Positions 1,983 through 60,904 of a DNA stretch of 64,000 nt are shown piece after piece. The stretch comes from Escherichia phage PJNS034. Under the pieces are notes generated by a model, which was not told the DNA's origin, searched no databases, and saw nothing but the letters and a program-made list of their open reading frames with translations. The stretch lies in the sequence record PP391266.1. One strand, written 5' to 3'. The position numbers and the translations under genes are program-made. Within the stretch, counting starts at the first letter, position 1, and each line of letters begins with the position of its first letter.

Positions 1983-1988
1983 AATCAA

Positions 1989-2016
1989 GGCTGGCTGAAA
2001 AGCTGGCCTTTCTTGT
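1989..2016 (+). terminator. rho-independent terminator (GNRA-loop hairpin plus T-run)
   Basis: GGCTGGCT-GAAA-AGCTGGCC followed by TTTCTTGTCTCT directly after stop of 1698-1982. Confidence 0.5.
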
Positions 2017-2028
2017 CTCTGAGGTATT

Positions 2029-2475: not shown

Positions 2476-4161
2476 TTGGCAAATATTTGGACAACTCCGC
2501 TCGCTTTGGAAGCGAAGATAGCAAACATTATCTCCAATCAAGGGAAACATGGTGTTAACTTCAACAAGGCCAAAGCAGCGTTCGGTGTGTTTGTTCTTGC
2601 AGAGAAGATTATAAACATCGACAAAGAGCTTGTCCCTATGCTTCCCATGATGATGCACGTGGGCACTGAATATAAGGCTCCATTCAAAGCGAATGGCGAC
2701 TTTAAGGTGTTTGTGCAGAAATATGCGGATAAGGTAGGGTTAAGTCGTTGCGATGTTGGTGGGCCGTTTACAGCGGTTCATTTCACACCATTTGACCCTT
2801 CCAAGACTGACCGCATGAAGCACGTCATGGCTGACGCTGGATGGGTTCCGGCAGTTTGGAATATCAAGAAGAATCCGATTCAAGAGTTGGATGGTCTTGG
2901 TTATATAGAGCGTCAGAATGCGGAAGCATTGCTTCTTGATAAGTATATCGAGAAGAACATCTTAGGTCATGGTGCTGCATGGACTGAGTTGATGTTGAAA
3001 GAGCTTAAATTCCGTGGACAGCGGAAGATTAGTAAGCTCAAAGAACACATCAGAAAGGCTCGTTATTGGCCTACTTCACCGAAGATTACACCAGATGAAG
3101 ACAAGTTCGTTGGTGATTCAAGAATCGGTGAATTAATTCAATCTCGTATGGTATGGTCACATCGTCGGTCATTACTTGAAGGATTGATTAAACTTGTCAG
3201 ACCAGATGGGAAGATTAGCGCTGATGCAAACAGTTGTGCAACACCCACTGCTCGTATGCGGCATCGTGGTGTGGTCAACATTCCTGCCGCTCGTGCTCCT
3301 TTTGGTTATTGGTGCCGAAGTCTTTTCATGGGAGACTATGACAAGACGGTTAAGAAAGGTTCTGTGTTCTATCCGTTTGGTAAGGAATTGCCAGAAGGAT
3401 TAAGACGTAAACCGGGCACAAACATTGTCGAGGAATACGACAAGAAGAAAGATAAATGGAAACACGCTGGTAAATATCGGAAGTTTGTTCCAGCGGGTCA
3501 ACATATCTTTGTTGGTTATGATGGTGCAGGTCTTGAACTTCGTATGTTGGCTCACTATGTTGGTGATGAAAACTTTACGAACCAGATTCTTCACGGTGAT
3601 ATTCATAGCCACAACCAGTCACTTGCTGGTCTTCCAACTCGTGATAACGCAAAGACGTTTATCTACGCATTCCTGTATGGTGCAGGTGATGCGAAAATCG
3701 GTTCTATCATCGGTGGTACTGCTGATGATGGTGCAGAAATCAAAGCTCGATTCATGAAATCACTTCCGAAACTTGCAGCACTGATTGAGCGTGTTCAACA
3801 GATTGCAGGAACTGATGGTTATGTCGAAGCGATTGATGGTCGTCGTTTGTATCTTCGTAAAGGTACGAATGGTAAGTATCAGACTCACAAAGCATTGAAC
3901 GTCTTGTTACAAGGTGCAGGTGCAATTGTCATGAAGTATGCGATGGCTTGGTTGGATTCTCAGATTAAGAAACAAGGTCTGAGGGCTTACAAGGTTATCG
4001 ACATGCACGATGAAGGGCAATTCTCAGTGCATCCTGATGATGTTCCAGCGGTTCGTGAACTGATGGAAAGTTGTGTTAAATGGGCTGGTGAGTTCTTGAA
4101 AATGAACTGTCCACTGGCATCCGATTCAATTGTTGGTCATGACTGGTTTGACACGCATTGA
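2476..4161 (+). CDS. DNA polymerase, family A, polymerase domain only (T7 gp5-like)
   Basis: 561 aa; motif A GYDGAGLELRMLAHY, motif B RDNAKTFIYAFLYGAG, motif C DMHDEGQF, C-terminal HDWFDTH; N-terminus aligns to T7 gp5 after its exonuclease domain; TTG start with AGGAAG RBS. Confidence 0.88.
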   Translation: MANIWTTPLALEAKIANIISNQGKHGVNFNKAKAAFGVFVLAEKIINIDKELVPMLPMMMHVGTEYKAPFKANGDFKVFVQKYADKVGLSRCDVGGPFTAVHFTPFDPSKTDRMKHVMADAGWVPAVWNIKKNPIQELDGLGYIERQNAEALLLDKYIEKNILGHGAAWTELMLKELKFRGQRKISKLKEHIRKARYWPTSPKITPDEDKFVGDSRIGELIQSRMVWSHRRSLLEGLIKLVRPDGKISADANSCATPTARMRHRGVVNIPAARAPFGYWCRSLFMGDYDKTVKKGSVFYPFGKELPEGLRRKPGTNIVEEYDKKKDKWKHAGKYRKFVPAGQHIFVGYDGAGLELRMLAHYVGDENFTNQILHGDIHSHNQSLAGLPTRDNAKTFIYAFLYGAGDAKIGSIIGGTADDGAEIKARFMKSLPKLAALIERVQQIAGTDGYVEAIDGRRLYLRKGTNGKYQTHKALNVLLQGAGAIVMKYAMAWLDSQIKKQGLRAYKVIDMHDEGQFSVHPDDVPAVRELMESCVKWAGEFLKMNCPLASDSIVGHDWFDTH

Positions 4162-10487: not shown

Positions 10488-11512
10488 TGAGCAAAATCCC
10501 CGTATGTAAGACAACACGACCTACGGTGGATTTAGCACTCATTGACGCAGACGTACTGCGTTACGAATTAGGGGCTGTGCAACTAGACCATCCTTATATC
10601 AAGGGTGAGAAGGTTCCAGCCCCTTCCTCGTTTGTTGAGGGCTTAGTTCAAGACCGTATTGAAACTATTCTGGACAGAACTGGTGCGAAAGACTTCTTAT
10701 TGTTCCTCACAGGGCCGGGAAACTTCCGGTTTGATATTGCCAAACAGCAACCATATAAAGGCAACCGAGAAGATTTTGAAAAGCCTTTCCATTGGAAGAC
10801 TGTTGACCGTTACCTCCGAACCGTTTATCCCTCCAAAATCCGTGAAGCATTCGGTAACGAGGCAGATGATGAATTGGGCATTACTCAATTACGTTCTGTC
10901 CTCGCAGGGGATAAGGATAACACCTGCATCGCTTCTCGTGACAAAGACCTGAGAACAGTGGAAGGATGGCATTACTCTTGGGCATGTGGTGAAGACCAGC
11001 CTGAGAAACCACTACGTTACATCACTCAGCTTGAAGGTTATCGCTTCTTCTTCCAACAGATGCTTACTGGTGATAACACTGATAACATCATTGGTTGTGG
11101 TAAAAAGAAAGAAGTGATGTGGGGTGGTAAGCTCATGATGCGGCGTAAAGGCGTGGGCAAGAAAACTGCTGAGAAGTTACTTGCAGAGCTTGAGAACCAA
11201 CAACAAATGTACGATGTTGTTCGTGAACAGTATGTCGAAGTGTTTGAGGATGAAGCTGATACAGTGATGCTCGAACAAGCTCGGTTATTGTTTATTGGAC
11301 AGACTGAGAAACAACAATTTAAATGGCACTGGATTGAGGTGGTTGAATATGGAATTGGCTCCGAAGAAAGCGAAGTTGTGGAAGGAAAAGAACCTGAAGG
11401 GACGTTGGATGTTCCTGAGGAAAATCGACGGAGTGAGAGCACTTCGGAACCTAGACCCAACGATTCCAGCGAAGTATGTGAGCCGGAATGCGAAACCTCT
11501 GTACAATCTTGA
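10487..11512 (+). CDS. 5'-3' exonuclease (T7 gp6-like)
   Basis: 341 aa; LALIDADVLRY, YKGNRE, EADDELG, SRDKDLRTV, TGDNTDNIIGCG align to conserved blocks of T7 gene 6 exonuclease; C-terminal about 55 aa overlap the ligase gene. Confidence 0.7.
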   Translation: MSKIPVCKTTRPTVDLALIDADVLRYELGAVQLDHPYIKGEKVPAPSSFVEGLVQDRIETILDRTGAKDFLLFLTGPGNFRFDIAKQQPYKGNREDFEKPFHWKTVDRYLRTVYPSKIREAFGNEADDELGITQLRSVLAGDKDNTCIASRDKDLRTVEGWHYSWACGEDQPEKPLRYITQLEGYRFFFQQMLTGDNTDNIIGCGKKKEVMWGGKLMMRRKGVGKKTAEKLLAELENQQQMYDVVREQYVEVFEDEADTVMLEQARLLFIGQTEKQQFKWHWIEVVEYGIGSEESEVVEGKEPEGTLDVPEENRRSESTSEPRPNDSSEVCEPECETSVQS

Positions 11513-12047
11513 CCACTTGGAGTTTGATGATGCTGAAATCTTTAATCAAAATTGGGAAACTTCCGTTTCAATGGTGCGTACTCATTGTGCGGCTCCTGTT
11601 CCTGCTGATTGCGTTTATCGTCTTGGTGATGGTCAGACCGATTCACGATTATACTTGTTCACGGTGCAAGACCCAACCGAAGAGTTCATTCGGAAGCATC
11701 TGGAAGAAGCTCTGGCGAAAGGTGATGAAGGCTTAATATTAAGGGAGGCCGATGTTGACGACCCGAAATGGCTCAAAGTCAAAAATAAAGAAACTCATGA
11801 CGTGGTGGTTACGGGTTATCAGCCGGGCACCGGTAAGCATGAAGGACGGATGGGTGCTCTACTTACGACGAGAGGCAAAGTTGGTACAGGCTTCACAGAC
11901 AGTGAACGAGACTACTGGCAGCAACGCTGGGAAGAGGGTACTGTCGTAGGTGTTACGATTGAGGTGGAATGTATGGAGTTAACTTCCACTGGTAAATTCA
12001 GACACCCACGCTTTATCCGTGAACGCCTTGATAAAGATGGCGAATAG
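11349..12047 (+). CDS. ATP-dependent DNA ligase (compact)
   Basis: Motif I KIDGVR, motif IV-like DEGLILR, motif V WLKVK, motif VI FRHPRFIRERLDKD; ATG at 11349 with GAGGTGG RBS; only about 233 aa. Confidence 0.7.
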   Translation: MELAPKKAKLWKEKNLKGRWMFLRKIDGVRALRNLDPTIPAKYVSRNAKPLYNLDHLEFDDAEIFNQNWETSVSMVRTHCAAPVPADCVYRLGDGQTDSRLYLFTVQDPTEEFIRKHLEEALAKGDEGLILREADVDDPKWLKVKNKETHDVVVTGYQPGTGKHEGRMGALLTTRGKVGTGFTDSERDYWQQRWEEGTVVGVTIEVECMELTSTGKFRHPRFIRERLDKDGE

Positions 12048-12267
12048 CAGTATATTAACTAAGGTCACTTCGGTGGCCTTTTCTTTCATCTAACTATAGG
12101 CAAAACAATGAAACAGGCTGTATTTGATTTCGCTTCTCGCATGGTCGATAAGCTGACTGCTGATTATGACAAAGCAGAAACCTCTGACGTTGCAGAACGC
12201 ATCATGTCAGAACTCAAAAACTACATCAAAATGCGTGATGATGCACAACGTTCTCTGGAGAAAGCTA

Positions 12268-36005: not shown

Positions 36006-37303
36006 TTATGCTACAGTTGCAGCAGCAGGGTCGCTAGAGGTTGCTTTAATTTCCTGAGGAGCACCATCTGGAGAGACAGTTACTGACAGAGGAAGTTTAG
36101 CACCCTTCTTAACGTACCGCTTTTTTGCACCGGCTATTGCCACACTTTCTACGGCTGGTTGTTCGTCGTTGACTACCACAGTTGCTGCATTGGTAGGAGT
36201 AGTACCAACTTTGTTAGTAAACTCGGCTACATACGAACCTGCATCTTCTTTCTGAGCATTAGCTTTGGTGAAAGATGGAGAGGTTGCACCTTCGATTGCA
36301 GCCCCATCCTTTTTCCACTGCACGGAGTCAAAGTTCTCCGCAGCAGCAGTTAAGGTAAAACTACCGCCAACAACGACGGTAGCATTACTTGGATGGGTTA
36401 GGATTTTGGGGCAGTATCTCCACCCGCTTTAGCAGTAATCATAGCCGCTGCTTTAGGGTTGTTCAGACGCAGACCAACTTCCTGCTCAATCATGAACTTC
36501 TCAGCAGAACCAGATTTCGCCAGAGCTACTTTCTTAGGAGCACGCAGTACAGCCATACCGAGGTCAGATGGGTTGAAGATGTAGATAACATCTTTCGGCA
36601 TCCAACGGTTAGGAATGCACTTCAGTTCCTGGCCCAGCGGGTCAACGATGTACTCAACCTGCTTAACAAAGCGTTTGTCGTTCTCGAAGATACGCATACG
36701 AGTACCAGACTTCTCTTGCAGTGAAGCGAAGAAGTCAGCTTTGCTTGGGTGGTACATGATGATGCTTGGGTCAGCACCTTCGGTGTACAGCAGAGCAGTA
36801 GTTTCGAACAGCAGTTCTTCTTTCAGCTCGCCAGTTTTCTTCATGGTTGCATCAATCATCGTACCGAAAGAAGCAGTCAGACGAGCAGTACCAGCAGCAC
36901 CCGGAGTTGCTTTCTGGTCAGCCAACAGGAAGATACCTTCGTTGTCACGCTTCAGCTCTTTAGCAGCTTTCTTCAGTTGATAGAACAGCTCTTTCTCACG
37001 ACCATGAGAACTAACGGCGTTAGCAGAGTCAGATACGAACACAACTTTACGCATAATCTGAGTGTAGTTCTGAACCACAGTGGTTGGGGTCAGGTCTACG
37101 TCTTCAGCATCAGATGCTTCAGCGAATGCGTTGCCGGTGTTGATATCACTCAGCTTATCCCACTGCCACTGGAACATAGTGTTGTGAACAGGGAATTTGC
37201 GAATCATGGAAATCAGCGGAGTGTATTCAGGAGAGATGTTGCTGACCCAATCAGCAAAGTCTTCCTTGATGCCAGCCATCTTGTAAGTCTGGTAAGTTGC
37301 CAT
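36006..37303 (-). CDS. major capsid protein, long form (MCP-Ig fusion via -1 frameshift)
   Basis: -1 frame is open across the MCP stop and encodes a complete Ig-like domain; slippery CCCAAAA sits two codons before the stop. Confidence 0.5.
36398..37303 (-). CDS. major capsid protein (short form)
   Basis: 301 aa; between scaffold and Ig-extension, size and position typical of T7-supergroup MCP. Confidence 0.65.
36404..36410 (-). other. -1 programmed ribosomal frameshift slippery heptamer C_CCA_AAA
   Basis: X_XXY_YYZ heptamer in zero frame (gcC CCA AAA tcc TAA); -1 frame continues as [16 protein letters not shown]... Confidence 0.5.
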
Positions 37304-43793: not shown

Positions 43794-43821
43794 TTGACTT
43801 TTTAACTCATTCGTTTAATAT
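43794..43821 (+). promoter_or_regulatory. sigma70-like promoter candidate
   Basis: TTGACT, 16-17 nt spacer, TAATAT. Confidence 0.4.
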
Positions 43822-43876
43822 AGCTCCCCGTTGAAACGCAGAACATCGCGGAGTAAACAAGTTAATCACTAAGTGG

Positions 43877-43905
43877 TTGACTGAATCGGGTTAGTATGTT
43901 TTAAT
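43877..43905 (+). promoter_or_regulatory. sigma70-like promoter candidate
   Basis: TTGACT, 17 nt spacer, TTTAAT. Confidence 0.35.
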
Positions 43906-44086
43906 GCTTACCGATTCAAACGCTCTTTAAAAATGTGGTCTGTCTTTAGGTGGTGTTTAACATCATTACTACAAGGCGCTTAGTTAGTTATCTGGTTTTG
44001 ATTCCTGTTTCATTAGTGATTCAGGCGGATTGATAAAGCATCTTCAATAAGTCTTTAACAGTTCGATACTTCGAAGAAATTAACGA

Positions 44087-44114
44087 TTGACAGCGTACTA
44101 GATTCCTGTAAGAT
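44087..44114 (+). promoter_or_regulatory. sigma70-like promoter candidate
   Basis: TTGACA, 16 nt spacer, TAAGAT. Confidence 0.4.
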
Positions 44115-44232
44115 AGACCACGTTTTAACGCTCTTTAACAATATGAATCATTAACGCTTAAACGTTAGTTTAATCAGACGTTATCAAGTGAAGCTGAAAA
44201 GTAACACGATAACAAATGATGAAAATAAACGG

Positions 44233-44260
44233 TTGACAGCGTGAAATGATTCGGTATAAT
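44233..44260 (+). promoter_or_regulatory. strong sigma70-like early promoter
   Basis: Consensus TTGACA, 16 nt spacer, consensus TATAAT, about 480 nt upstream of first early gene. Confidence 0.6.
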
Positions 44261-45348: not shown

Positions 45349-45387
45349 AGCCCCTTGCATTGAATAAATGTGAGGGGCTTTTTGTTT
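45349..45387 (+). terminator. rho-independent terminator
   Basis: AGCCCCT-N17-AGGGGCT followed by TTTTTGTTT. Confidence 0.55.
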
Positions 45388-51235: not shown

Positions 51236-51431
51236 ATGGCTGTTCCGTCAGGGAAAAGACCTGAACTCTATTCTGGCTCCGCTTCGTAAGATGAAGCTGG
51301 AACTGGAAGAACGCCTCCACAAGAATGCTGATGATATTGTGGAAGCACAAAAGACCATCACCGAAAAGACCAAAGAAAATGGTTCTATTGGTGAAGCCCT
51401 GCAAACTGACCTGTTCAAATCTATCAAGTGA
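51228..51431 (+). CDS. hypothetical small protein
   Basis: 67 aa; RBS AGGAAG. Confidence 0.35.
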   Translation: MLKWLFRQGKDLNSILAPLRKMKLELEERLHKNADDIVEAQKTITEKTKENGSIGEALQTDLFKSIK

Positions 51432-51442
51432 GACAAACGACT

Positions 51443-52360
51443 ATGATTCGCACCCCATTCGGTAACTTCTCTGGTAAGACTATCGGTATCACTGCTGGCG
51501 TGATTGTGTTCCTCTTCATCCTGCTGCTGTTGAAGCCGTTCAAAGTTATCTCTGACACCGAGGAGGGTGTGCAGAAGTCGTGGTCAGGCCAGATTTACAG
51601 TCAACCAATGACTGCTGGCTTCCACTGGATGAACCCGTTCAACAGCGTCACAACGTTCCCAATGACGTATAAGAACGTTCAACTGACAAATATCGGCGTT
51701 CCTGCTCAGGACGGTTTCAAAACCACGATGGATATCAGCGTAACTGGTAAATTTATTCCGGGCATGACCCCTGCTGTCCTGAAGTCTACCGGTAATTCTG
51801 AACAGTTTGCAGCAGTGCATATCTCTAAACGTATCACAGCTAAGCTGATTGATGCTGGTAAGAAGCACGCTGTAATCAGTCAGAACTTCTACGATGAAAG
51901 CACTCTGAACAAAGTTCGTGAAGAAATCATCGTAACGGCTAACCAAGAGCTTGAGCCTCTGGGTTGGAAAGTGACTGCGGTTGAAATCAGCAACATCGAC
52001 CTGCCGGACGTTATCAAGAACGCTATCAGCGAGTCCAAGGTTCGTGCTGAACAGGTTAAGCGTCAGAAAGAATCCTTAGCAATTGCTGCTCTGAAAGCAC
52101 AAGAGATTGAGAAAGTTGCAGAGTCTAACTCTAAAGCAACTATCCTCGATGCTGATGCTAACGAGTACAAAGCTAAGAAAGAAGCTGATGCTAAAGTGTA
52201 TGCTGCTGCTCAGGAAGCAAAAGGTAACAAAGAAGTTGCTGCCTCTGTAACTCCTGCTCTGGTTGAATACATGAATGCTCAAGCTAAGATGAAGTGGGAT
52301 GGTCAGATGCCAACAACGAATGTTGGTTCTAACACTCCTGTCATCATGAGCATGAAGTAA
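51443..52360 (+). CDS. SPFH/band-7 (HflK/HflC-like) membrane protein
   Basis: N-terminal TM, SPFH core ...VTAVEISNIDLPDVIKNAISE..., C-terminal Ala/Lys coiled-coil. Confidence 0.5.
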   Translation: MIRTPFGNFSGKTIGITAGVIVFLFILLLLKPFKVISDTEEGVQKSWSGQIYSQPMTAGFHWMNPFNSVTTFPMTYKNVQLTNIGVPAQDGFKTTMDISVTGKFIPGMTPAVLKSTGNSEQFAAVHISKRITAKLIDAGKKHAVISQNFYDESTLNKVREEIIVTANQELEPLGWKVTAVEISNIDLPDVIKNAISESKVRAEQVKRQKESLAIAALKAQEIEKVAESNSKATILDADANEYKAKKEADAKVYAAAQEAKGNKEVAASVTPALVEYMNAQAKMKWDGQMPTTNVGSNTPVIMSMK

Positions 52361-52368
52361 TATACTCA

Positions 52369-52393
52369 AGCCCATCTATATGGTGGGCTTTAT
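52369..52393 (+). terminator. terminator/attenuator hairpin in conserved cassette
   Basis: stop-TATACTCAAG, AGCCCATC-TATAT-GGTGGGCT, TTTATGAAT. Confidence 0.45.
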
Positions 52394-52730
52394 GAATGTT
52401 ACTTAAACGAGGAACTAAAAGATGTTTGAATTTATCGGTGATTGTATTGCAACAACACTCAAGGCTGGATTGGGTGTGGTATTCATTGTGCTTATCTGGG
52501 TTGGCTTCCAGATGGCATGGAACTGGACGCTTGACCGTATTCGCTGGGGATTCAAATGAAAATTGAGTTCACTGGAATGAAAGGTGGTCAGCATTGCTTC
52601 AAGAAAGGGGCATTGACTTACCGCTTTAGCGAGGACGAACTCGCACAAATCGTTGGCTATGCTGTACGTATGGCAAAGGCTAACAACAACAAAACCCTGA
52701 AACAAACTAACTCCAAAAAGGACAAATGAA

Positions 52731-54128
52731 ATGCCAATCGTAACTATCGTAACTAACCGTAATAACTCTGAAACTAAGCGTGTTGAAGCTCAGTCAGGCG
52801 GTTGCTTCGGCTTTATGGCATCAACCTCTTTCTTCCGTGACCATCGCCGCGATGTTGAGTACGTTGGTTATCATATGGAGTCATCCAATCAGGCTAAGCA
52901 TTGTAGCGAAGTCTTTGATGGTAAGAATAAGTTATTCCCGTATCACAAATTCATGACCAACAATGAGTTCCATGCTATGTTCGGTGAGAACTTTGTGGAT
53001 ACTCGCCACGGTACTGTTAGTCACCACGGTTATGTGGTTGTTGAAATGCAGCCAGAAGGTTTTGAAGGTGTTGGTATTCCACAGGACATGTTCATCTCTG
53101 GTCTGTTCACTGCTCGTCAGTTGAGCTATGGCCTGTATCCGAACATGCGTGACACCATTAAGAAAGGTGTTCACCCAATGATGGCTTACGTTATCAGTGA
53201 GCTGATTCAGTGGGAAGATACAAGCACTGCTCTTGCTGCACAGCTTCGCTGGAAACGTCAGCGTGTTAGTTCTTCCAACATCGACAGCACAGCGTTCGGT
53301 AAGAAGAACCTGATTAACATGTTCAACTGCCTGAAAGGTAAGAAGCATGTGCCTTACTTCGGTCACGAAGGTGGCATCATTCAGCGTGGTGGTTACAAGC
53401 GTGACCATAACTTCAACACCTCTGCTGATAATCGTCCGGGTATTTATCAGACAATCACGGCGAACATGAACACTTCATCTGCACCGATTGAAGCTGATGA
53501 ACCAATCATCAACCCGTTCCACTTCTCTCCAGCTTACCTCGGTCATGTACTGAATGAACTGCTGGGTTGTGAAGTATTTGATATGTCGAAGATGCTTGAC
53601 CGTCAGGGTATGAAAGTTAACCCAAAATCTTCGGTGTACAAGTTCTACCAGATGCGTGATGTGAAGTTCCGTAAGTCATATCGAAAAGGTGATATGGTTG
53701 AAGTTCGTGCTGATATGTTCGGTGCTGACCAGTACATCAACCGTCACAACACTCCGCTGAGCAATCTGGTTTCTTATCGTCATGGTGAGAACAACACCAC
53801 TAACCGTGTTGGTTTCGTACCGGTTAAGACTCATGTTGAGAAGGTCAGCGTGAAGAACGGTGTGGAAAGCGTTAAGCTGGAAAACGGTTGCTGGGTATCT
53901 CCACGTTACATCAAAACTGCTGGTACTCATGCGGTTGAAGGTGTGAAGATTCAGGCAGGTACTGACACTCCGGTAAATGCACTGTATACAGTTCGTAATT
54001 CAAAAGAAGTGTATGCTGCACGTACCTTTGACTTGTTCGAAGCATCTGTTCGACTGATTCAGGTTACTGGTAACAGTATCGGTCAAGAGATTATCAAGCG
54101 TCCACGTGACCTGATTCCAGCGCTCTAA
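52731..54128 (+). CDS. hypothetical protein (first gene of amidoligase module)
   Basis: 465 aa; no motif recognised. Confidence 0.45.
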   Translation: MPIVTIVTNRNNSETKRVEAQSGGCFGFMASTSFFRDHRRDVEYVGYHMESSNQAKHCSEVFDGKNKLFPYHKFMTNNEFHAMFGENFVDTRHGTVSHHGYVVVEMQPEGFEGVGIPQDMFISGLFTARQLSYGLYPNMRDTIKKGVHPMMAYVISELIQWEDTSTALAAQLRWKRQRVSSSNIDSTAFGKKNLINMFNCLKGKKHVPYFGHEGGIIQRGGYKRDHNFNTSADNRPGIYQTITANMNTSSAPIEADEPIINPFHFSPAYLGHVLNELLGCEVFDMSKMLDRQGMKVNPKSSVYKFYQMRDVKFRKSYRKGDMVEVRADMFGADQYINRHNTPLSNLVSYRHGENNTTNRVGFVPVKTHVEKVSVKNGVESVKLENGCWVSPRYIKTAGTHAVEGVKIQAGTDTPVNALYTVRNSKEVYAARTFDLFEASVRLIQVTGNSIGQEIIKRPRDLIPAL

Positions 54129-54282
54129 TGGGTATTAATAAGACCATGACTACAGCGTTCTTTATCCTCGCTGTAGCATCGCCAATACTTGCCTGTTTCA
54201 ATACAACAGCAGCAGCATTTAGTGCTGGCATGGCTGTCTTCGCAATGCTTTGTTATGTTGTAGCGAACGGTTGATATACTCA

Positions 54283-54312
54283 AGGTCATTCACAAAGTGA
54301 GTGGCCTTTATG
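54283..54312 (+). terminator. terminator/attenuator hairpin in conserved cassette
   Basis: stop-TATACTCAAG, GGTCATTCAC-AAA-GTGAGTGGCC, TTTATGAAT. Confidence 0.45.
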
Positions 54313-54360
54313 AATATCATCTGCCAATAACGGCAACTTAAACTGAACGAGGAAACTACT

Positions 54361-55170
54361 ATGACGATTCGCCTGATTACTCTTGGTGCTGACCCTGAAA
54401 CTATTGTTGCTCGCAACGGTGTTCCAACTCACGCTATTGGTCTTATCGGCGGTACTAAGGAAGAACCACGTAAGATTATCCGTGGTGGTCGTGAAGTTGG
54501 TGCGGTGCAGGAAGATAATGTCCTGTATGAGTTCAACATCATGCCACACGATACTCGTCAGGGATTCATTGACAACATTCAGCAGATGTTGGAAGTGGGT
54601 CGTGAGATTCTGGGTGATGGTTACGAAATCACTAATAAGACTTCTCACATCTTCTCTGATGAAGACATGGCTCATTTCCCTGACTCAGCGTTTATCTTCG
54701 GTTGTGAACCGGATTTCTTCGCTGGTAATGGTGAGATGAATCCGAAGCCTGCTGCACCGTGGCCGGGTCTGCGTACCGCAGGTGGTCATGTTCACTTCGG
54801 GTTCGATGAGCGTGTAGTTCGTGATGATGAGAATGTTCGTTCTCTGATTCAACTGTGCGATATGTATATGGCGTTGCCGTCAATGCTTCTGGACACTGAC
54901 GACCTGCGTAAAGAACTGTATGGTAAGGCCGGTGCATTCCGTCCGAAAGCATATGGTGCTGAATATCGTACACTGTCAGGTTTCTGGATTCATAATCCTG
55001 AAAATACTGGCTTCGTGTTTGACCAAGCGCAGAAAGCGTATGATGCGTTGGCAACTGGTCTGGGTCGTGAGATGTTGGCACGTTTCCCATACGAACTGGT
55101 TGTCGATATCATCAACAGCAATGACCGTGGACGTGCTGAACGTGCCCTGAAAGTTATGCAGGTTGCATAA
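54361..55170 (+). CDS. amidoligase-like (GCS2/carboxylate-amine ligase-like) protein, divergent paralog
   Basis: 269 aa; GGHVHFGFD (H-x-H) and GAEYRTLSGFW (E-x-R) as in GCS2-type ligases; N-terminal E-x-E replaced by D-P-E. Confidence 0.4.
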   Translation: MTIRLITLGADPETIVARNGVPTHAIGLIGGTKEEPRKIIRGGREVGAVQEDNVLYEFNIMPHDTRQGFIDNIQQMLEVGREILGDGYEITNKTSHIFSDEDMAHFPDSAFIFGCEPDFFAGNGEMNPKPAAPWPGLRTAGGHVHFGFDERVVRDDENVRSLIQLCDMYMALPSMLLDTDDLRKELYGKAGAFRPKAYGAEYRTLSGFWIHNPENTGFVFDQAQKAYDALATGLGREMLARFPYELVVDIINSNDRGRAERALKVMQVA

Positions 55171-55352
55171 TGGAAGAAGGTCTGCTGATTAGCTGGGTTG
55201 AATCTCCAGCGAACCGTAAGACCAAGACTCATACCCTCTTCTTCGAAAGCCTGGACGAGGGTTATGAGTTCATGGCCTCTAAAAGTTGTGTAATTCAAGT
55301 ACAACGCATTCCACTGGTGAGAAAGAATGGCGAAACTGGTAACGGTAAATAA
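55170..55352 (+). CDS. hypothetical small protein
   Basis: 60 aa, ATG overlapping upstream stop. Confidence 0.3.
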   Translation: MEEGLLISWVESPANRKTKTHTLFFESLDEGYEFMASKSCVIQVQRIPLVRKNGETGNGK

Positions 55353-55518
55353 CGCAGATAAAACTGTAACTCGTCGTGTCTTTATGGACAACGAAGAGGG
55401 TATCATGTGGGCAGTTGACCAAGCCCGCACAGCACTGTCAGTCGTGACTGATGATGTGGAAGTGGTCGAGGCTTCCAGCCGTAAAGGTTGGGAAGGTCAT
55501 ATCGCATGTGATTGCTAA
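55327..55518 (+). CDS. hypothetical small protein
   Basis: 63 aa ORF. Confidence 0.3.
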   Translation: MAKLVTVNNADKTVTRRVFMDNEEGIMWAVDQARTALSVVTDDVEVVEASSRKGWEGHIACDC

Positions 55519-55542
55519 TTTAAACTGAACGAGAGAACTAAA

Positions 55543-56151
55543 ATGTCAATCAATATGTCAAGTGGTGATTTACGTCTGTATTGGGGTGGGTGTTATGCAC
55601 CTGTTGCATGGGATGCAGCAGATAGTGGCGTAGCAACACTGGTAATTCACGACGTTCGTGTGATAAATCCAATGTCACGTGACTACACCGAAGCACGAGT
55701 TCAAGGTGAACTATTCTTCATTCGTAATGGAGAAGAGGCTCGTGGTAATTTTGAAGGTCGTATGTCTGACCTCCTCGGTGATGGGTTCACCACTCCTCAA
55801 CGCAATATCGGTTATATCCGTGTTCACGGTCAACCGTATTGGATTACCTTCAAACGTCGTCGTACAAATCGTAAAGGCATCACCAATGACCGTCTGGCTG
55901 TGTATGTAGCTGGGCATCGTGGTGAAGCAGGTTTGAACTTCGGTAGTGATGTGTTGTGTCGTCTGTATGCAACCTTTGATGGTCGTATCTCTGATGATTT
56001 CTGTATTCATCAGAACATGATTCATTATAAAGGTGTGGTTGTCGGACGTTATGAGCGTCACAATCGTATTGTATTAGCTGAACGTTTTGCGTATCTTAGC
56101 TGGTCGCTGGAACGTATCGGTGGTTACGACGTAACGGTGGAGGTTGAGTAA
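55543..56151 (+). CDS. hypothetical protein
   Basis: 202 aa; RBS GAGAGAA. Confidence 0.4.
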   Translation: MSINMSSGDLRLYWGGCYAPVAWDAADSGVATLVIHDVRVINPMSRDYTEARVQGELFFIRNGEEARGNFEGRMSDLLGDGFTTPQRNIGYIRVHGQPYWITFKRRRTNRKGITNDRLAVYVAGHRGEAGLNFGSDVLCRLYATFDGRISDDFCIHQNMIHYKGVVVGRYERHNRIVLAERFAYLSWSLERIGGYDVTVEVE

Positions 56152-56975
56152 TGATTATTGCTGACATTTTAGGGCATGGTCGTGGGTCGGATGTTGTTGA
56201 TACGCATCCGTTGATTGTTGGTCGAGGCCGTGTAGGACTCGAATTAGAACTGGAGAATATGCCAAATGCTCGACAAGCTGCTGGTTGGACAGTTACTGGT
56301 GACGGTTCTCTGCGTAATAGCGGCGTGGAATATGTACTCCGTGGTGCTCAGGGAGGTATGGAGTTATTTAATTCGATACTTTCTCTGGAAGAAGCACTCA
56401 TGGCACATCAATGTGATGCTAACCTTCGCTGCTCTACTCACGTTCACCTTGATATACGTCGGCTCACTGTGGCTCAACTCAAGCGTTTACTTCTGGCTTA
56501 TACAGTCTTTGAGCCATTAATCTTTGAGTTGTCCGGTGCGCATCGTCGTACTAACAACTTCTGTCCGTCGTTTAGTTTCGCTCAGCAACAAATTCGTAAG
56601 CTGAGTAACAACTGGCATCATGATGGTGAACGATTCCTTGCTCGTATTGTGGAAGGTCGTGACCGCCAATCCAGTGATAAGTATTCAGCACTGAATCTGG
56701 TTCCAATCTTCACTCAGGGTTCTGTAGAGTTCCGTGGTGCAGAAGCGAAGCCAAGTGCAGGTAAGATGATTCGTCTGGCTAACCGTATTCTAAGTCTGTA
56801 TGACTTAGCGGTTAACTCTGATATGAATCAGTCTGATGCTGAGTTCATTAACTCACTGGCGAACCTTGATGTTCAACAGGCATTGATGGGTACGATTCCT
56901 CGTGACTTCGAACTCAGCGAAGAACTGGTGAATGAAGGACGTGTCTTAGCGTTCGATATTATCTCTCTGGGGTGA
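56151..56975 (+). CDS. amidoligase (GCS2-like carboxylate-amine ligase)
   Basis: 274 aa; VGLELELE (E-x-E), CSTHVHLD (H-x-H), GSVEFRGAE (E-x-R): the three signature blocks of gamma-glutamyl-cysteine-synthetase-2-like amidoligases. Confidence 0.55.
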   Translation: MIIADILGHGRGSDVVDTHPLIVGRGRVGLELELENMPNARQAAGWTVTGDGSLRNSGVEYVLRGAQGGMELFNSILSLEEALMAHQCDANLRCSTHVHLDIRRLTVAQLKRLLLAYTVFEPLIFELSGAHRRTNNFCPSFSFAQQQIRKLSNNWHHDGERFLARIVEGRDRQSSDKYSALNLVPIFTQGSVEFRGAEAKPSAGKMIRLANRILSLYDLAVNSDMNQSDAEFINSLANLDVQQALMGTIPRDFELSEELVNEGRVLAFDIISLG

Positions 56976-56976
56976 C

Positions 56977-57192
56977 ATGAGCTGGAACGAACGAGAGTAT
57001 CGTAAACCAAAGTTGGGCACTGTATGTGTCCACTTCGAACCTTCGTATAAGTCAACCTTTGGAAGTACGAAGAAGTTCCCTAACGCATCGTTCTACTTGA
57101 GTACGAACGGTGTAATCATCATCCGTGATATGGATGGTGACAACATCTGTGCATACCCTGAAGGTGTGTGGCTGAATGTTGAAATGAAGTGA
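56977..57192 (+). CDS. hypothetical small protein
   Basis: 71 aa ORF. Confidence 0.3.
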   Translation: MSWNEREYRKPKLGTVCVHFEPSYKSTFGSTKKFPNASFYLSTNGVIIIRDMDGDNICAYPEGVWLNVEMK

Positions 57193-57202
57193 TTAACTCA
57201 AG

Positions 57203-57224
57203 CCCTTCTTCGGGAGGGTTTTAT
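57203..57224 (+). terminator. terminator/attenuator hairpin in conserved cassette (UUCG loop)
   Basis: stop-TTAACTCAAG, CCCTTC-TTCG-GGAGGG, TTTTATGG. Confidence 0.5.
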
Positions 57225-57278
57225 GGTAATCATTACCACAAACTATTGAAACTAACTATTGAACTTGAGGAAAGTATT

Positions 57279-58871
57279 ATGTGCGGAATCGTTGGAATTA
57301 TGCGTGGCGTTATGACTGAAGGTATGGTGGACATGTTTGAACAACTGCTGTATGCAGATGTGTTCCGTGGCCCGCACTCCACTGGCGTCTATCGTGTTAA
57401 TAAAGATGGTCAATCAGGGTTGTATAAGGATGCAGTACCTGCGTCTTTATATCTTGGCTCGAAAGGCTGGGATGATTTACGTGGGAATCTGAATGGAACT
57501 GCTGGTCATCAGGCACTGTCTCAAGTTTATGTTGGTCATAACCGTTGGGCAACTGTAGGTGCAGTTAACGCTGTGAACTCACATCCATTCAAGTGCGGTA
57601 ACATCACGATGGTACACAATGGTACTGTTGCGAAGTGGCGTTTGAATGACCACCTGAAGTATGACGTTGATAGTCATGCGGTGTGTGCGATGTTGGATTC
57701 ACATGGTCTGGCTGAAACTCTGAAAGTTCTGGATGGTAAGTTTACTCTGGTGTGGCATGACGCATCTGATAACACCATGAACTTTATCCGTAATGCAGAA
57801 CGTCCTCTGCACATGGTTGAGTTCACTGATGGTGGTTGGGCGTTTGCATCAGAAGGTGAGATGTTAACGTGGATTAATGGTCGTCGTAAGACCCCGTTTG
57901 GTATTAAACGTGCTTTCGAACTGCCAGTTGGCTTCCATCATAAATTCCAGTTATCCGCGAGCAAAGTAGAGCTTGCGGAGGTCGTTAAGTACGAACTCCC
58001 AAAGTTCACCAGCTACGCCAGCAACAGCACGTATTATCCAAACCGAAGCTCAGTCGCAAGCAGCAGCGCAAGCTCAACAAACTCAGAAAGCGCAACCGCT
58101 AGACGTGTGCGTCTGATGAAAGAGTGGGGCATTGACGTTGGAGACCGCAAAGATGTAGAGAACATGATTGTGTCTCTGGATAACATCGCGTTCACAGCGT
58201 ACTCAACCAATGCAGCATCAGGTCGTATTGATGCAGACGCATGGGGTTACGATGAAGCTGTTGATGCCTGTGATGCTGGTCATATGGAAATTGACTGTAA
58301 GCGTGGTGGTAAAACTGAAGATGTTCAGGTAACAGTTTACGGTGTTGATACTGTTAAGTGGAAAGACAACTACTCTCAGGGCGACCGTCTGTACGGTAAG
58401 ATTGACAGTGTGTTTGAATCCACTGAGCATGGCAAGACTCGTCTTCGTATCACTTTGAAACCACTGACTCTGTGTACTGAGTTGGCTGATGGCGTTGAAG
58501 CCTTTAATGAGAAAGTGTTCCCGCTCCTCATTAAGAAAGAGGCCGAAAAGGTTGATGCCGACAAAAGTAAATCAGATGTTGCAGGAAGCACTGGAAGCGC
58601 AGGAACTGCAACTGGTCAGGGAACTCAGTTATCGGTTGTAGTGGATAACACTGCAAAAAAGCCGGAAGGTACGGACTCATCAAGCGGCTCGCCGAACTTG
58701 TTCAACATGTCCGCAATTCCAATGAGTCTTAAAGACTTGCGTGAAGACAAGCTGAGTTGTGCTTGGTGCGGAAATGCAATCCACGAACATAACTACGAAA
58801 TGTCTGATATGTTCTTTAAATCTCACATCTGCCCAGATTGTGCCAAGGAGTTACCGGGTTATGGCGACTGA
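57279..58871 (+). CDS. class-II glutamine amidotransferase (Ntn hydrolase) domain protein with C-terminal extension and Zn-ribbon
   Basis: N-terminal Met-Cys-Gly-Ile-Val-Gly (catalytic Cys after Met removal), Ser-rich linker, C-terminal CAWCG...CPDC. Confidence 0.55.
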   Translation: MCGIVGIMRGVMTEGMVDMFEQLLYADVFRGPHSTGVYRVNKDGQSGLYKDAVPASLYLGSKGWDDLRGNLNGTAGHQALSQVYVGHNRWATVGAVNAVNSHPFKCGNITMVHNGTVAKWRLNDHLKYDVDSHAVCAMLDSHGLAETLKVLDGKFTLVWHDASDNTMNFIRNAERPLHMVEFTDGGWAFASEGEMLTWINGRRKTPFGIKRAFELPVGFHHKFQLSASKVELAEVVKYELPKFTSYASNSTYYPNRSSVASSSASSTNSESATARRVRLMKEWGIDVGDRKDVENMIVSLDNIAFTAYSTNAASGRIDADAWGYDEAVDACDAGHMEIDCKRGGKTEDVQVTVYGVDTVKWKDNYSQGDRLYGKIDSVFESTEHGKTRLRITLKPLTLCTELADGVEAFNEKVFPLLIKKEAEKVDADKSKSDVAGSTGSAGTATGQGTQLSVVVDNTAKKPEGTDSSSGSPNLFNMSAIPMSLKDLREDKLSCAWCGNAIHEHNYEMSDMFFKSHICPDCAKELPGYGD

Positions 58872-59159: not shown

Positions 59160-60653
59160 ATGCTGCGTATCTTCAACTACAACAACGGTTCTCAAGGTCT
59201 GGGTGCTCTGCGTGAACATGTAGAGCCATTGATTCGTGAGATGAATACTCATCGTGGTTTCCGTAACATTCGTCCGGTTATGGGTAGCGAGAATGGTTCT
59301 GCTCGTCTGTTTCAGGCGACTAACCGCTTCATTATGAACTGGGGTTCTTCGCAACCCCTGAACACTGATGAAAGCAACTTCGTTCTCAACAAACCGGAAG
59401 CTGTTGGTTTAGCAACTCATAAACTCCGCTTCTTCCAACATGTTCACCAGTGGAACCAAGAGAAGATTGCTCAGGGTGTGAATGGCCTGACTGTTCCGAT
59501 TCCTGAGTGGACAACTTCTCGTGATGAAGCTCAGACTTGGGCAGGGCATGACCATCTGGTTTATGCCCGTCAACGTCTGCAAGGTCATAGCGGTGAAGGT
59601 ATCGAAGTATACGGTATCAATCAGGTTGTTGAACGTGCTCCACTGTACACCAAAGGCATCATCGGTGCTCGTCGTGAGTATCGTGTTCATGTCATTGCTG
59701 GTCAGGTGGCACTGGTTCAGTTGAAGAAACGCCGCAATGGTGGTGAGGCTGTGGGCAATGGTAATGACCATGTTCGTAACCTCGGCTCTGGTTGGGTGTA
59801 TGCAGTAAGTGATGCTCGTCCATCACCAGTCGTATTGAGTGCAGCACAGAATGCAGTTCGTGCTCTGGGTCTGGACTTTGGTGCGGTAGACATTATCGCT
59901 AAAGGTCGTAAAGGTCAGGAGCGTGAGTGCTGGGTGTTGGAAGTTAACACTGCACCGGGTCAGCGTGGTGATACTACTGTGACGCTGTATGCTCGTGCTG
60001 TTGCATCGGCATATGCAATCTGGATGAATCGTGATAGCGTTGACGTCCGTGATTTAGGAGGTGTCAAAGCTGCATGGGAAACACTTCCTTGGCTGAACGA
60101 TGAAACCTTCCTTGCTCTGATGCGTGATGAAGGTGCAGATGGTTCGGTACTTCTGCGTTCTCAGCGTGAAACTCAGGCAGCAGAGGCAGAAATGCCTAAC
60201 ACTGACGATGATGTGGCGGCAGATGAAAACTTTGCCCTTCCTGCTGATGAACTGACACCTGCTCGTGCAACCTCTGGTGCTCATGTAGTTCACACTGGTA
60301 CTCGTTGGGTTGATGTAGAAGCAGCACCTCAAGTTCGTGCTGAGCCTGTACGTCGTCGTGACGGTGAGCCAATGCCGTTCAATGGTAATCCATTCGATGC
60401 ACGTATTCGTCGTGAACCTGCACCACGTCCTGCACCTGAACCGGTTGTAATGCCAGAACGTCGTGTCATGTTGTCTCGTCTGGGACAGAATGACCCACAG
60501 AACGAACAGTTCGTGGTATTCACATGGAACGGTCGTCGTGAAGTCGGTGTAGTCAATACTCGTCTGGGTGTTGTTTACATGGCTGGTAGCGAAGTTCAAC
60601 TTCCACTGGCTCAGGTTGATTTGATTGCGGTAGTTGATACCGAAATTCGTTAA
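59160..60653 (+). CDS. ATP-grasp family ligase (RimK-like) with C-terminal extension
   Basis: 497 aa; GEGIEVY, EYRVHVIAG, LGLDFGAVDII, WVLEVNTAPG (E-x-N) ATP-grasp blocks; about 200-aa extension. Confidence 0.5.
   Translation: MLRIFNYNNGSQGLGALREHVEPLIREMNTHRGFRNIRPVMGSENGSARLFQATNRFIMNWGSSQPLNTDESNFVLNKPEAVGLATHKLRFFQHVHQWNQEKIAQGVNGLTVPIPEWTTSRDEAQTWAGHDHLVYARQRLQGHSGEGIEVYGINQVVERAPLYTKGIIGARREYRVHVIAGQVALVQLKKRRNGGEAVGNGNDHVRNLGSGWVYAVSDARPSPVVLSAAQNAVRALGLDFGAVDIIAKGRKGQERECWVLEVNTAPGQRGDTTVTLYARAVASAYAIWMNRDSVDVRDLGGVKAAWETLPWLNDETFLALMRDEGADGSVLLRSQRETQAAEAEMPNTDDDVAADENFALPADELTPARATSGAHVVHTGTRWVDVEAAPQVRAEPVRRRDGEPMPFNGNPFDARIRREPAPRPAPEPVVMPERRVMLSRLGQNDPQNEQFVVFTWNGRREVGVVNTRLGVVYMAGSEVQLPLAQVDLIAVVDTEIR
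59973..59984 (+). repeat. 12-mer ACTACTGTGACG, copy 8
   Basis: Exact, codons 272-275 of ATP-grasp gene. Confidence 0.9.
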
Positions 60654-60682
60654 TTGCTTTAGGGTATTCTTCGGAGTACCCT

Positions 60683-60904
60683 ATGTCGATTGAACCGAAC
60701 GAGGAATATATGAAAGTATGGGTAGTTATGTTCCAAGAGTATGACCTAGCCGAAGTGCTGGAAATCTACTCGAAGGAAGAAGATGCTATAGCACATCGTC
60801 AGGCTGAAATTGATAAGAGCTTGTCATACGCTAAGAAGTGGAATGTCAAACCACACCCTGCGCTCGAACAGTTTTATACAATTCACGAAAAAGAGGTAAA
60901 GTAA
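60683..60904 (+). CDS. hypothetical small protein
   Basis: 73 aa ORF. Confidence 0.3.
   Translation: MSIEPNEEYMKVWVVMFQEYDLAEVLEIYSKEEDAIAHRQAEIDKSLSYAKKWNVKPHPALEQFYTIHEKEVK

What the first reader, a model, noticed from the sequence alone, without database searches (positions are those of the whole stretch)
52361..57224. Repeated stop-(T)A(T/A)ACTCAAG-hairpin-TTTATG cassette between genes of the amidoligase module
At 52361, 54275 and 57192 a stop codon is followed by (T)ATACTCAAG or TTAACTCAAG, a GC-rich hairpin (one with a UUCG tetraloop) and TTTATG(A/G); a TTAAACTGAACGAG RBS context recurs upstream of the next gene. The short U-tract suggests partial terminators or processing sites that set relative expression within the operon.
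Basis: seen in the sequence. Interest (0 to 1): 0.45.

Follow-up and report, generated by a model that had tools for sequence, protein, structure and literature searches.

The report
T7-type RNase III cut sites
The three repeated "stop codon, box, hairpin, TTTATG" cassettes are RNase III processing signals of the kind long known in phage T7, found here in an unrelated 65-kb phage; they most likely cut a long mRNA into separate messages that each end in a protective hairpin.

Summary
Three cassettes lie on the + strand, each directly after a stop codon, against 0.07 expected by chance. They are not short-U terminators. Each hairpin is the upper stem of a larger fold: an 8-9 bp lower stem that includes the stop codon, an asymmetric internal loop (ACUCA / UAUG), and a 9-12 bp upper stem-loop. 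This is the architecture, and nearly the sequence, of the T7 RNase III sites R0.3, R0.5, R1.1 and R18.5 ((A/U)ACUCAAGG-hairpin-CCUUUAU|G). A covariance model built only from six T7 sites finds exactly these three places in the 64 kb (E = 4e-9, 2e-8, 9e-6). In phiYeO3-12 it recovers 7 of 10 annotated RNase III sites, and it ignores the T7 terminators. The phage belongs to the phiEco32/KSP100 group. No T7 RNA polymerase or kinase homologue was detected. The sites recur at the same gene junctions in relatives (TacPo2 and metagenomic contigs), with compensatory changes. Predicted single cuts fall after 52393, 54311 and 57224. Cleavage itself is inferred, not shown. Verdict: a new member of a known kind, of modest interest.

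The parts
52355..52404 (+). RNase III-type signal C1, between the SPFH/Band-7 gene and a 45-aa membrane ORF. Lower stem 52355-63/52396-404, internal loop, upper stem 52368-76/52382-90, loop UAUAU. Predicted single cut after U52393.
   Evidence: Fold of -21.7 kcal/mol, z = -4.6. T7-only covariance model: 47.3 bits, E = 2e-8. Orthologous sites in TacPo2 (36.2 bits) and L206 (48.5 bits).
54268..54323 (+). RNase III-type signal C2, between a 48-aa membrane ORF and the COOH-NH2 ligase gene. Lower stem 54272-77/54314-19 (extended by 54268-70/54321-23), upper stem 54282-93/54297-308, loop AAA. Predicted cut after U54311.
   Evidence: Fold of -23.3 kcal/mol, z = -4.3. Model score 50.1 bits, E = 4e-9. 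blastn hits fall on 'putative RNase III site R4.7' of phiYeO3-12 and on the R0.5 cut site of T7.1. Orthologues in TacPo2 (54.9 bits) and L206 (43.6 bits), weak ones in L207 and L211.
57188..57234 (+). RNase III-type signal C3, between a 71-aa ORF (after Amidoligase_2) and the class-II glutamine amidotransferase gene. Lower stem 57188-95/57227-34, upper stem 57200-08/57213-21, UUCG loop. Predicted cut after U57224.
   Evidence: Fold of -18.9 kcal/mol, z = -3.4; the antisense strand folds at only -8.7. Model score 35.9 bits, E = 9e-6, comparable to T7 R6.5 (36.2 bits), which was not in the training set. Absent in TacPo2. Weak orthologue in L210.
51428..52360 (+). SPFH/Band-7 gene. Its mRNA would end in the C1 hairpin.
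   Evidence: Pfam PF01145, E = 2e-15.
52422..54274 (+). Message released between C1 and C2: a 45-aa membrane ORF (52422-52559), a 57-aa ORF (52556-52729), a 465-aa protein with no family hit (52731-54128), and a 48-aa membrane ORF (54128-54274).
54361..57192 (+). Message released between C2 and C3: COOH-NH2 ligase (54361-55170), two small ORFs, a phrog_4877 protein (55543-56151), Amidoligase_2 (56151-56975), and a 71-aa ORF (56977-57192).
57279..58871 (+). Class-II glutamine amidotransferase, the first gene of the message that starts at the C3 cut.
   Evidence: Pfam GATase_6, E = 3e-18.
54338..54351 (+). TTAAACTGAACGAG translation-initiation-region repeat (second exact copy at 55520-55533). 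It lies downstream of the C2 lower stem and is not part of the RNase III fold.

Best explanation
C1, C2 and C3 are intercistronic RNase III processing signals of the T7 type. On the sense transcript, the stop-codon region pairs with the sequence just after TTTATG(A/G)A to form a lower stem. The hairpin extended by AAG/CUU forms an upper stem. Together they give about two turns of helix, interrupted by an asymmetric internal loop. By analogy with T7 R1.1, R0.3, R0.5 and R18.5, host RNase III would cut only the 3' side of the loop (CUUUAU|G). The upstream message is left with a 3' stem-loop that protects it from 3'-5' exonucleases, and the downstream message starts 28-54 nt before its start codon. 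The long transcript is probably made by the host polymerase, since no phage RNA polymerase was found. It would be divided into three or four messages with independent stability and translation: ...SPFH | unknown 465-aa block | ligase-to-Amidoligase_2 | amidotransferase.... What is shown: the motif, the fold, its statistical match to proven sites, strand specificity, covariation, and positional conservation. What is inferred: cleavage, the exact cut position, and the effect on expression.
For: (1) At the T7 positions I recall from Dunn & Studier 1983 for R0.3, R0.5, R1.1 and R18.5, the sequence is (A/T)ACTCAAGG-hairpin-CCTTTAT|G. R18.5 reads cagTGATATACTCAAGG...TCTTTAT|GGATGTCATTG, stop codon included.
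(2) The minimum-energy folds of C1-C3 have the same lower stem, internal loop and upper stem as the T7 sites. Sense-strand z-scores are -4.6, -4.3 and -3.4. The antisense strand is 7-10 kcal/mol weaker because of G.U pairs.
(3) A covariance model built from six T7 sites only finds just these three places in the 64 kb on either strand; the next hit has E = 1.1.
(4) The same model recovers 7 of the 10 stem-loops annotated 'putative RNase III site' in phiYeO3-12, with no extra hits there. In T7 it also finds R6.5 and R1.3, which were not in the training set, and no hit with E <= 5 covers the annotated terminators Te or Tphi.
(5) Across 21 sites from 5 genomes, 96.7% of cells are paired (36-51% when partners are slid), and 18 of 19 pairs show changes on both sides.
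(6) blastn of C2 hits 1,083 phage records, and some hits fall on features annotated as RNase III sites.
(7) The TacPo2 orthologue of C1 has a rewritten upper stem (AAGCCCAUC to GGAGUCGUUC) that still pairs fully, with an identical lower stem.
(8) Sites recur at the same junctions in contigs whose ligase is only 68-74% identical.
(9) Literature: internal loops limit RNase III to one phosphodiester, and the resulting 3' hairpin protects the RNA (PMC1540722, PMC3867540). The T7 early precursor is cut at five such sites (PMC4858673).
Against: There is no experimental end-mapping for this phage. The host is not known; Enterobacterales is inferred from the relatives (a Pantoea phage and a Serratia phage). 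C3 scores lower than the others, has a G.U pair in place of the G-C next to the loop, and is missing in TacPo2, so it may be weaker or dispensable. The TacPo2 C1 variant puts G-C pairs next to the loop; depending on the box numbering, which I could not verify, these could be antideterminants. The T7 cut coordinates come from my memory of Dunn & Studier 1983 and are only indirectly corroborated. Ribosomes terminating at the stop codon would melt the lower stem, though the same is true of T7 R18.5.
Confidence: 0.85

Rival explanations
1. Leaky intrinsic (Rho-independent) terminators. The G+C-rich hairpin plus UUUAU would make a fraction of polymerases stop, stepping expression down along the operon.
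For: The hairpins are stable and followed by 3-4 U. The simple terminator scan flags C3. Hairpins of similar style with true U-runs exist elsewhere in the window (12063-12078, 45349-45379), and T7 Te has the same style.
Against: Only 1 of the 3 passes the terminator scan. A terminator model does not explain the conserved 5' box, the lower stem, or their covariation. TacPo2 C1 keeps the fold but loses the U-run (UCUGAAU). The T7-site model gives no hit (E <= 5) at Te or Tphi. Near-identical T7 sites are read through by host RNA polymerase, which makes a ~7,000-nt precursor (PMC4858673).
Confidence: 0.06
2. Weak internal sigma-70 promoters. TG-n-TATACT acts as an extended -10 element, and the hairpin becomes a stabilising 5' stem-loop of the new transcript.
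For: C2 reads TGATATACT and C3 reads TGATTAACT. The promoter scan lists CTGTCA-17-TATACT at C1. In T7 the minor 'E. coli promoter E' is annotated at 36836, inside R18.5, which has the same TGATATACT.
Against: The -35 elements are poor or absent at C2 and C3. C1 has TAATATACT, with no TG. C3 has a T, not the key A, at the second position of the -10 element. This reading does not explain the lower stem, the 3' box or the covariation. The TGA is simply the stop codon.
Confidence: 0.04
3. Mobile or recombinogenic regulatory cassettes: short conserved patches that serve as joints for exchanging gene blocks between phages. This does not exclude RNase III processing.
For: Near-identical cassettes occur in unrelated phage families. 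Nucleotide homology between the window and TacPo2 is lost at 53405-54272 and resumes exactly at the 5' edge of C2. Small ORFs next to C1 and C2 differ between the two phages. An HNH endonuclease gene sits directly after the cassette in one T7-like contig.
Against: Only one breakpoint coincides with a cassette, and the other end of the divergent block lies inside a gene. The sites are positionally conserved over deep divergence, which fits vertical inheritance under functional constraint. Shared sequence can be explained by the requirements of RNase III.
Confidence: 0.1

Closest known systems
Phage T7 RNase III processing signals R0.3, R0.5, R1.1, R4.7 and R18.5 (Dunn & Studier 1983, recalled from memory; Nicholson laboratory R1.1 RNA, PMC1540722, PMC4858673)
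   Same: Same boxes ((A/U)ACUCAAG(G)...(C)CUUUAU|G). Same lower stem, asymmetric loop and upper stem. Same intercistronic position overlapping the upstream stop codon. Same conserved U.G wobbles in the upper stem. The TacPo2 C2 core matches T7 R1.1 at 31 of 32 bases by eye.
   Different: The carrier is a ~65-kb phage of the phiEco32/KSP100 group. No T7 RNA polymerase or gp0.7 kinase homologue was detected. There are only three sites, all in the amidoligase module. Cleavage is untested.
Annotated RNase III stem-loops of other Autographiviridae (phiYeO3-12, T3, SP6-like and Vibrio ICP3-like phages)
   Same: Found by the same model in the same score range, 35-61 bits. Hits of C2 overlap the annotated R4.7 site.
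   Different: Those genomes are 38-45 kb, carry 2-8 hits to the model each, and are largely transcribed by a phage RNA polymerase.
T7 early terminator Te
   Same: Same AAGG/GGCC-type G+C-rich hairpin with a tetraloop after a stop codon. A Te-like hairpin also follows the ligase gene in this window, at 12063-12078.
   Different: Te has a longer U-rich tail and no conserved ACUCA box or lower stem, and the RNase III model gives no hit there at E <= 5.
PeSL 'promoter-early stem-loop' mobile regulatory cassettes of T4-type phages (recalled from memory, not checked here)
   Same: Repeated intergenic regulatory cassettes with a stem-loop that flank variable small genes.
   Different: PeSLs combine an early promoter with a stem-loop and are proposed to act through recombination. 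Here the conserved parts are RNase III determinants, and no promoter is evident.

Membership tests
T7-type RNase III processing signal (single cleavage in an internal loop) | About two helical turns made of an upper stem-loop and a lower stem, separated by an asymmetric internal loop | tested here: met
   The folds of C1-C3 match those of T7 R0.3, R0.5, R1.1, R4.7 and R18.5. Sense-strand z-scores are -3.4 to -4.6.
T7-type RNase III processing signal (single cleavage in an internal loop) | Conserved loop and flanking sequence (A/U)ACUCAAG ... CUUUAU|G | tested here: met
   The T7-only covariance model gives E = 4e-9, 2e-8 and 9e-6, with no other hit below E = 1.
T7-type RNase III processing signal (single cleavage in an internal loop) | Both helices supported by compensatory changes across sites and genomes | tested here: met
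   96.7% of cells paired and 18 of 19 pairs changed on both sides; slid controls give 36-51%. Caveat: the alignment was fitted to the model. The orthologous TacPo2 C1 has a rewritten stem that still pairs.
T7-type RNase III processing signal (single cleavage in an internal loop) | Located between cistrons on the sense strand of a polycistronic transcript | tested here: met
   All three sites follow stop codons of co-oriented genes, 28-54 nt before the next start codon. The polycistronic transcript itself is inferred.
T7-type RNase III processing signal (single cleavage in an internal loop) | No antideterminant G-C/C-G pairs at the critical proximal-box and distal-box positions | tested here: inconclusive
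   The pairs next to the loop are C.U, A-U, A-U, then G-C (G.U in C3), as in R1.1. I could not verify the box numbering because the figures are not held (PMC1540722).
T7-type RNase III processing signal (single cleavage in an internal loop) | Actually cleaved by host RNase III at one phosphodiester | not testable with these tools
   Needs in vitro cleavage or rnc-dependent end mapping.
Intrinsic (Rho-independent) terminator | G+C-rich hairpin immediately followed by a U-rich tract (about 5 or more U in 8 nt) | tested here: not met
   The tails are UUUAUGAA, UUUAUGAA and UUUUAUGG. Only C3 passes the scan. The TacPo2 C1 tail is UCUGAAUG.
Sigma-70 promoter | A -35 and a -10 hexamer with 16-18 nt spacing, or an extended -10 element | tested here: inconclusive
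   C1 gives 9 of 12 matches. C2 has TGnTATACT but no -35 element. C3 has a poor -10 (TTAACT).

The most novel reading that the evidence does not exclude
T7-type RNase III signals are not a private feature of T7-like phages. They may be a shared 'optimal single-cut' module that has spread, or arisen repeatedly, among virulent phages of gamma-proteobacteria. Besides the lineage of this window, Aeromonas phage BUCT695 carries several, while phiEco32 carries none and no complete E. coli genome has a copy. In this lineage the sites may also act as recombination joints that bound exchangeable gene blocks of the amidoligase module, since homology with TacPo2 resumes exactly at C2.
Probability: 0.15. 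Interest if true: 0.5.

Novelty: new member of a known kind. Interest (0 to 1): 0.3.

Why it matters
The finding gives a concrete, testable map of mRNA processing for a poorly known phage group in which TacPo2 is annotated entirely as 'hypothetical protein'. It shows how the enigmatic phiEco32-type amidoligase module is probably split into separately stabilised messages. It extends a classic T7 regulatory device to phages in which no T7-type polymerase or kinase was detected. This suggests that the host enzyme's substrate rules, rather than T7 ancestry, shape these sites. Rfam has no family for this element, so a covariance model like the one built here could annotate such sites across more than 1,000 phage genomes. 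It is not a new mechanism.

Tried and rejected
- Protein-seeded searches for close relatives in viral contigs and metagenome contigs found nothing. Relatives came from the search for homologous proteins and the look-up of encoding contigs instead.
- The first loose DNA pattern scan returned mostly chance hits and had to be filtered for hairpins.
- An Rfam scan of 45-64 kb found no family.
- The 10-mer box alone (2 mismatches or fewer) and WAACTCAAG are not enriched, so the signal lies in the composite element.
- The terminator reading was rejected: weak U-run, loss of the U-run in TacPo2 C1, no model hit at Te or Tphi, and T7 read-through.
- The promoter reading was rejected as the main function: -35 elements are poor, and the TG comes from the TGA stop codon.
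- tblastn found no homologue in the window of T7 RNA polymerase or gp0.7 kinase (also absent from TacPo2 bases 1-59999; the last ~5 kb, which carries only ORFs shorter than 200 aa, was not in that search), nor of phiEco32 sigma gp36 or gp79. The transcribing polymerase is therefore assumed to be the host enzyme, possibly with an unrecognised phage factor.
- phiEco32 itself has no such sites, so the sites are not a general trait of the amidoligase module.
- No copy was found in 5,426 complete E. coli genomes.
Full report
**1. The observation**

The three places are as described. TAA (52358-60), TGA (54272-74) and TGA (57190-92) end real ORFs. These are an SPFH/Band-7 gene, a 48-aa membrane ORF and a 71-aa ORF. 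Each stop is followed by TATACTCAAG or TTAACTCAAG, a G+C-rich hairpin and TTTATG(A/G). The hairpin loops are UAUAU, AAA and c(UUCG)g.

The composite pattern ACTCAAG-N14-30-TTTATG occurs three times in 64 kb, all on the + strand. Chance predicts 0.07, and 0 of 100 shuffles reached three. The short box by itself is not enriched.

The 'RBS context' TTAAACTGAACGAG is exact only at 54338 and 55520. The second copy is not beside a cassette, so this motif is a separate feature.

**2. The genomic setting**

- The window is most of a ~65-kb phage genome. Its only close database relative is Pantoea phage TacPo2, at about 80% nucleotide identity.
- The portal protein is 93% identical to a fragment from Serratia phage KSP100 and about 40% identical to phiEco32-group phages.
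- The module runs SPFH, 465-aa protein, COOH-NH2 ligase, phrog_4877 protein, Amidoligase_2, class-II amidotransferase, ATP-grasp-like protein, gamma-glutamyl cyclotransferase, primase/helicase. This order is syntenic with phiEco32 genes 88-75.
- tblastn found no T7 RNA polymerase, T7 kinase, phiEco32 sigma gp36 or gp79 homologue in the window.
- Consensus sigma-70 promoters lie upstream on the same strand.

**3. What the cassette is**

A scan of IMG/VR with the window's own pattern, filtered for hairpins, showed the same cassette in many 38-45-kb contigs. It sat next to T7/SP6-type promoters and between T7 genes 18 and 18.5. That junction holds the T7 RNase III site R18.5.

I then read the T7 genome at the RNase III cut coordinates I recall from Dunn & Studier 1983. 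The sequences are:
- R0.3: AACTCAAGGGTATCGCAAGGTGCCCTTTAT|G
- R0.5: GACTCAAGG...CCTTTAT|G
- R1.1: AACTCAAGGTCATTCGCAAGAGTGGCCTTTAT|G
- R18.5: TGATATACTCAAGGCCACTACAGATAGTGGTCTTTAT|G

The cassette is therefore the canonical T7 RNase III processing signal.

The stop-codon region pairs with the bases after TTTATGA to form a lower stem. All three window sites fold into the same lower stem, asymmetric loop and upper stem as the T7 sites. Sense-strand z-scores are -4.6, -4.3 and -3.4. The antisense strand is much weaker because of G.U pairs.

**4. An independent statistical test**

I built a covariance model from six T7 sites only, with no window sequence. Run without filters over both strands, it gave these results:

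| Target | Result |
|---|---|
| Window | Exactly three hits: 54263-54325 (50.1 bits, E = 4e-9), 52349-52407 (47.3 bits, 2e-8), 57181-57238 (35.9 bits, 9e-6). Next hit E = 1.1 |
| phiYeO3-12 | 7 of the 10 stem-loops annotated 'putative RNase III site', nothing else |
| T7 | R6.5 and R1.3 (not in training) found; no hit at E <= 5 covers terminators Te or Tphi |
| SP6 | 2 hits |
| Vibrio phage JSF24 | 8 hits |

On the 21 aligned sites, 96.7% of cells pair, against 36-51% when partners are slid. Of 19 pairs, 18 show changes on both sides, and two U.G wobbles in the upper stem are conserved. The caveat is that this alignment was fitted to the model.

blastn of C2 against 50,697 phage records hits 1,083 of them. 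The records sampled across the whole ranking are nearly all 38-45-kb T7/SP6-type (Autographiviridae) genomes. Some hits fall on features annotated 'putative RNase III site R4.7' and 'putative RNaseIII cut site'. Rfam has no family for the element. No copy exists in 5,426 complete E. coli genomes.

**5. Conservation within the lineage**

| Junction | Where a site is found |
|---|---|
| C1 (after SPFH) | TacPo2, with identical lower stem, a completely rewritten but fully paired upper stem, and UCUGAAU instead of UUUAUGAAU; L206 (48.5 bits) |
| C2 (before the ligase) | TacPo2 (shorter stem, core matching T7 R1.1 at 31 of 32 bases by eye); L206 (43.6 bits); weak in L207 and L211 |
| C3 (before the amidotransferase) | Weak in L210; absent in TacPo2 |
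| Extra | L206, after its 528-aa gene |

L206-L211 are metagenomic contigs whose ligase is 68-74% identical to the window's. The sites therefore look like an old, positionally conserved feature of this clade rather than a recent insertion.

phiEco32 has none. Aeromonas phage BUCT695 (Grimontviridae) has four hits to the model, two of them strong, including a weaker one inside its amidoligase module.

**6. Mechanism**

These facts are established for T7:
- Host RNA polymerase makes a ~7,000-nt early precursor that RNase III cuts co-transcriptionally at five such signals (PMC4858673).
- R1.1 RNA is cut at a single phosphodiester (PMC4858673).
- Internal loops restrict cleavage to one strand, and the resulting 3' hairpin protects the RNA from 3'-5' exonucleases (PMC1540722, PMC3867540).

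For this phage I infer single cuts after U52393, U54311 and U57224. These would yield messages ending in the C1, C2 and C3 hairpins, and new 5' ends 28, 49 and 54 nt upstream of the next start codons. The amidoligase module would thereby be divided into units with their own stability and translation.

**7. Rival readings**

- Leaky terminators. The U-run is poor, and only C3 passes the scan. TacPo2 C1 loses the U-run yet keeps the fold. The lower stem and 5' box are unexplained. Near-identical T7 sites are read through by the host polymerase.
- Weak promoters. TGnTATACT resembles an extended -10 element, and T7 'promoter E' lies inside R18.5. However, the -35 elements are poor and the TG belongs to the TGA stop codon.
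- Recombination joints. Homology with TacPo2 resumes exactly at C2. This is a single coincidence, and it is compatible with processing.

**8. Verdict**

The element is a textbook kind of signal, the T7-type RNase III site, found in a lineage where, as far as my searches show, it has not been reported. It is a new member of a known kind, of modest interest.

Noticed in passing
window 12046-12090 (+): TAACTAAGGTCAC-TTCG-GTGGCCTTTTCTTTC lies directly after the DNA-ligase-like gene (11295-12047). The hairpin has the same AAGG/CCUU style as the cassettes, but with a true U-run and no lower stem. It looks like a T7-Te-type terminator, and T7 Te also follows the ligase gene.
   Followed up: partly
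window 60653-60712 (+): After the ATP-grasp-like gene there is a UAGGGUAUUC-UUCG-GAGUACCCUA hairpin without a U-run. It has a possible short lower stem (AAUUG/CGAUU) and is followed by TTGAACCGAACGAGGAATATATG. It may be a fourth, non-canonical processing site; the model scores only 11.9 bits.
   Followed up: partly
window 1983-2020 (+): A half-cassette reads aaaaTCAAGGCTGGCT-GAAA-AGCTGGCCTTTCTTGTCTC, just before an ATG at 2029. It is Te-like, and the model hit covers only the hairpin (14.2 bits).
   Followed up: no
window 54338-54351, 55520-55533; variants at 52404, 57255-57272, 60690: A translation-initiation-region motif recurs: TTAAACTGAACGAG(G/A)(A/G)AACTA..ATG. Related forms occur in TacPo2 (CTAAACTGAACGAGG, ACTGAATCGAGGAA). 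It may be a shared leader or translation enhancer.
   Followed up: partly
window 53405-54272 versus TacPo2 (L001 2476-3240): Nucleotide similarity to TacPo2 disappears inside the 465-aa gene and resumes exactly at the 5' edge of cassette C2. The 465-aa protein is only 44% identical, against 84-90% for the SPFH, ligase and Amidoligase_2 neighbours. The small membrane ORFs 52422-52559 and 54128-54274 have no counterpart in TacPo2.
   Followed up: partly
window 43794-44260 (+) and 45349-45379: Three sigma-70 consensus promoters face the + strand block (one is a perfect TTGACA-16-TATAAT at 44233). They are followed by a strong 12-13-bp terminator hairpin with a U-run, an arrangement reminiscent of T7 A1-A3.
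   Followed up: no
L205 (Aeromonas phage BUCT695) 704-1025 and 17345-17396: Three tandem T7-type RNase III-like hairpins sit in one intergenic region, and a fourth lies between amidoligase-module genes. This phage belongs to the Grimontviridae, so such sites occur outside the Autographiviridae beyond the window's lineage.
   Followed up: partly
L013 3760-3900 (IMG/VR T7-like contig): An HNH endonuclease gene is inserted directly downstream of the R18.5-type cassette, where sister contigs have gene 18.5.
   Followed up: no
TacPo2 record PP496723, CDS TacPo2_6 (3256-4119): The annotated start of the COOH-NH2 ligase gene lies inside the C2 hairpin and appears to use a non-standard ATT start. The likely true start is the ATG near 3310, after the GAGGA Shine-Dalgarno sequence.
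   Followed up: partly
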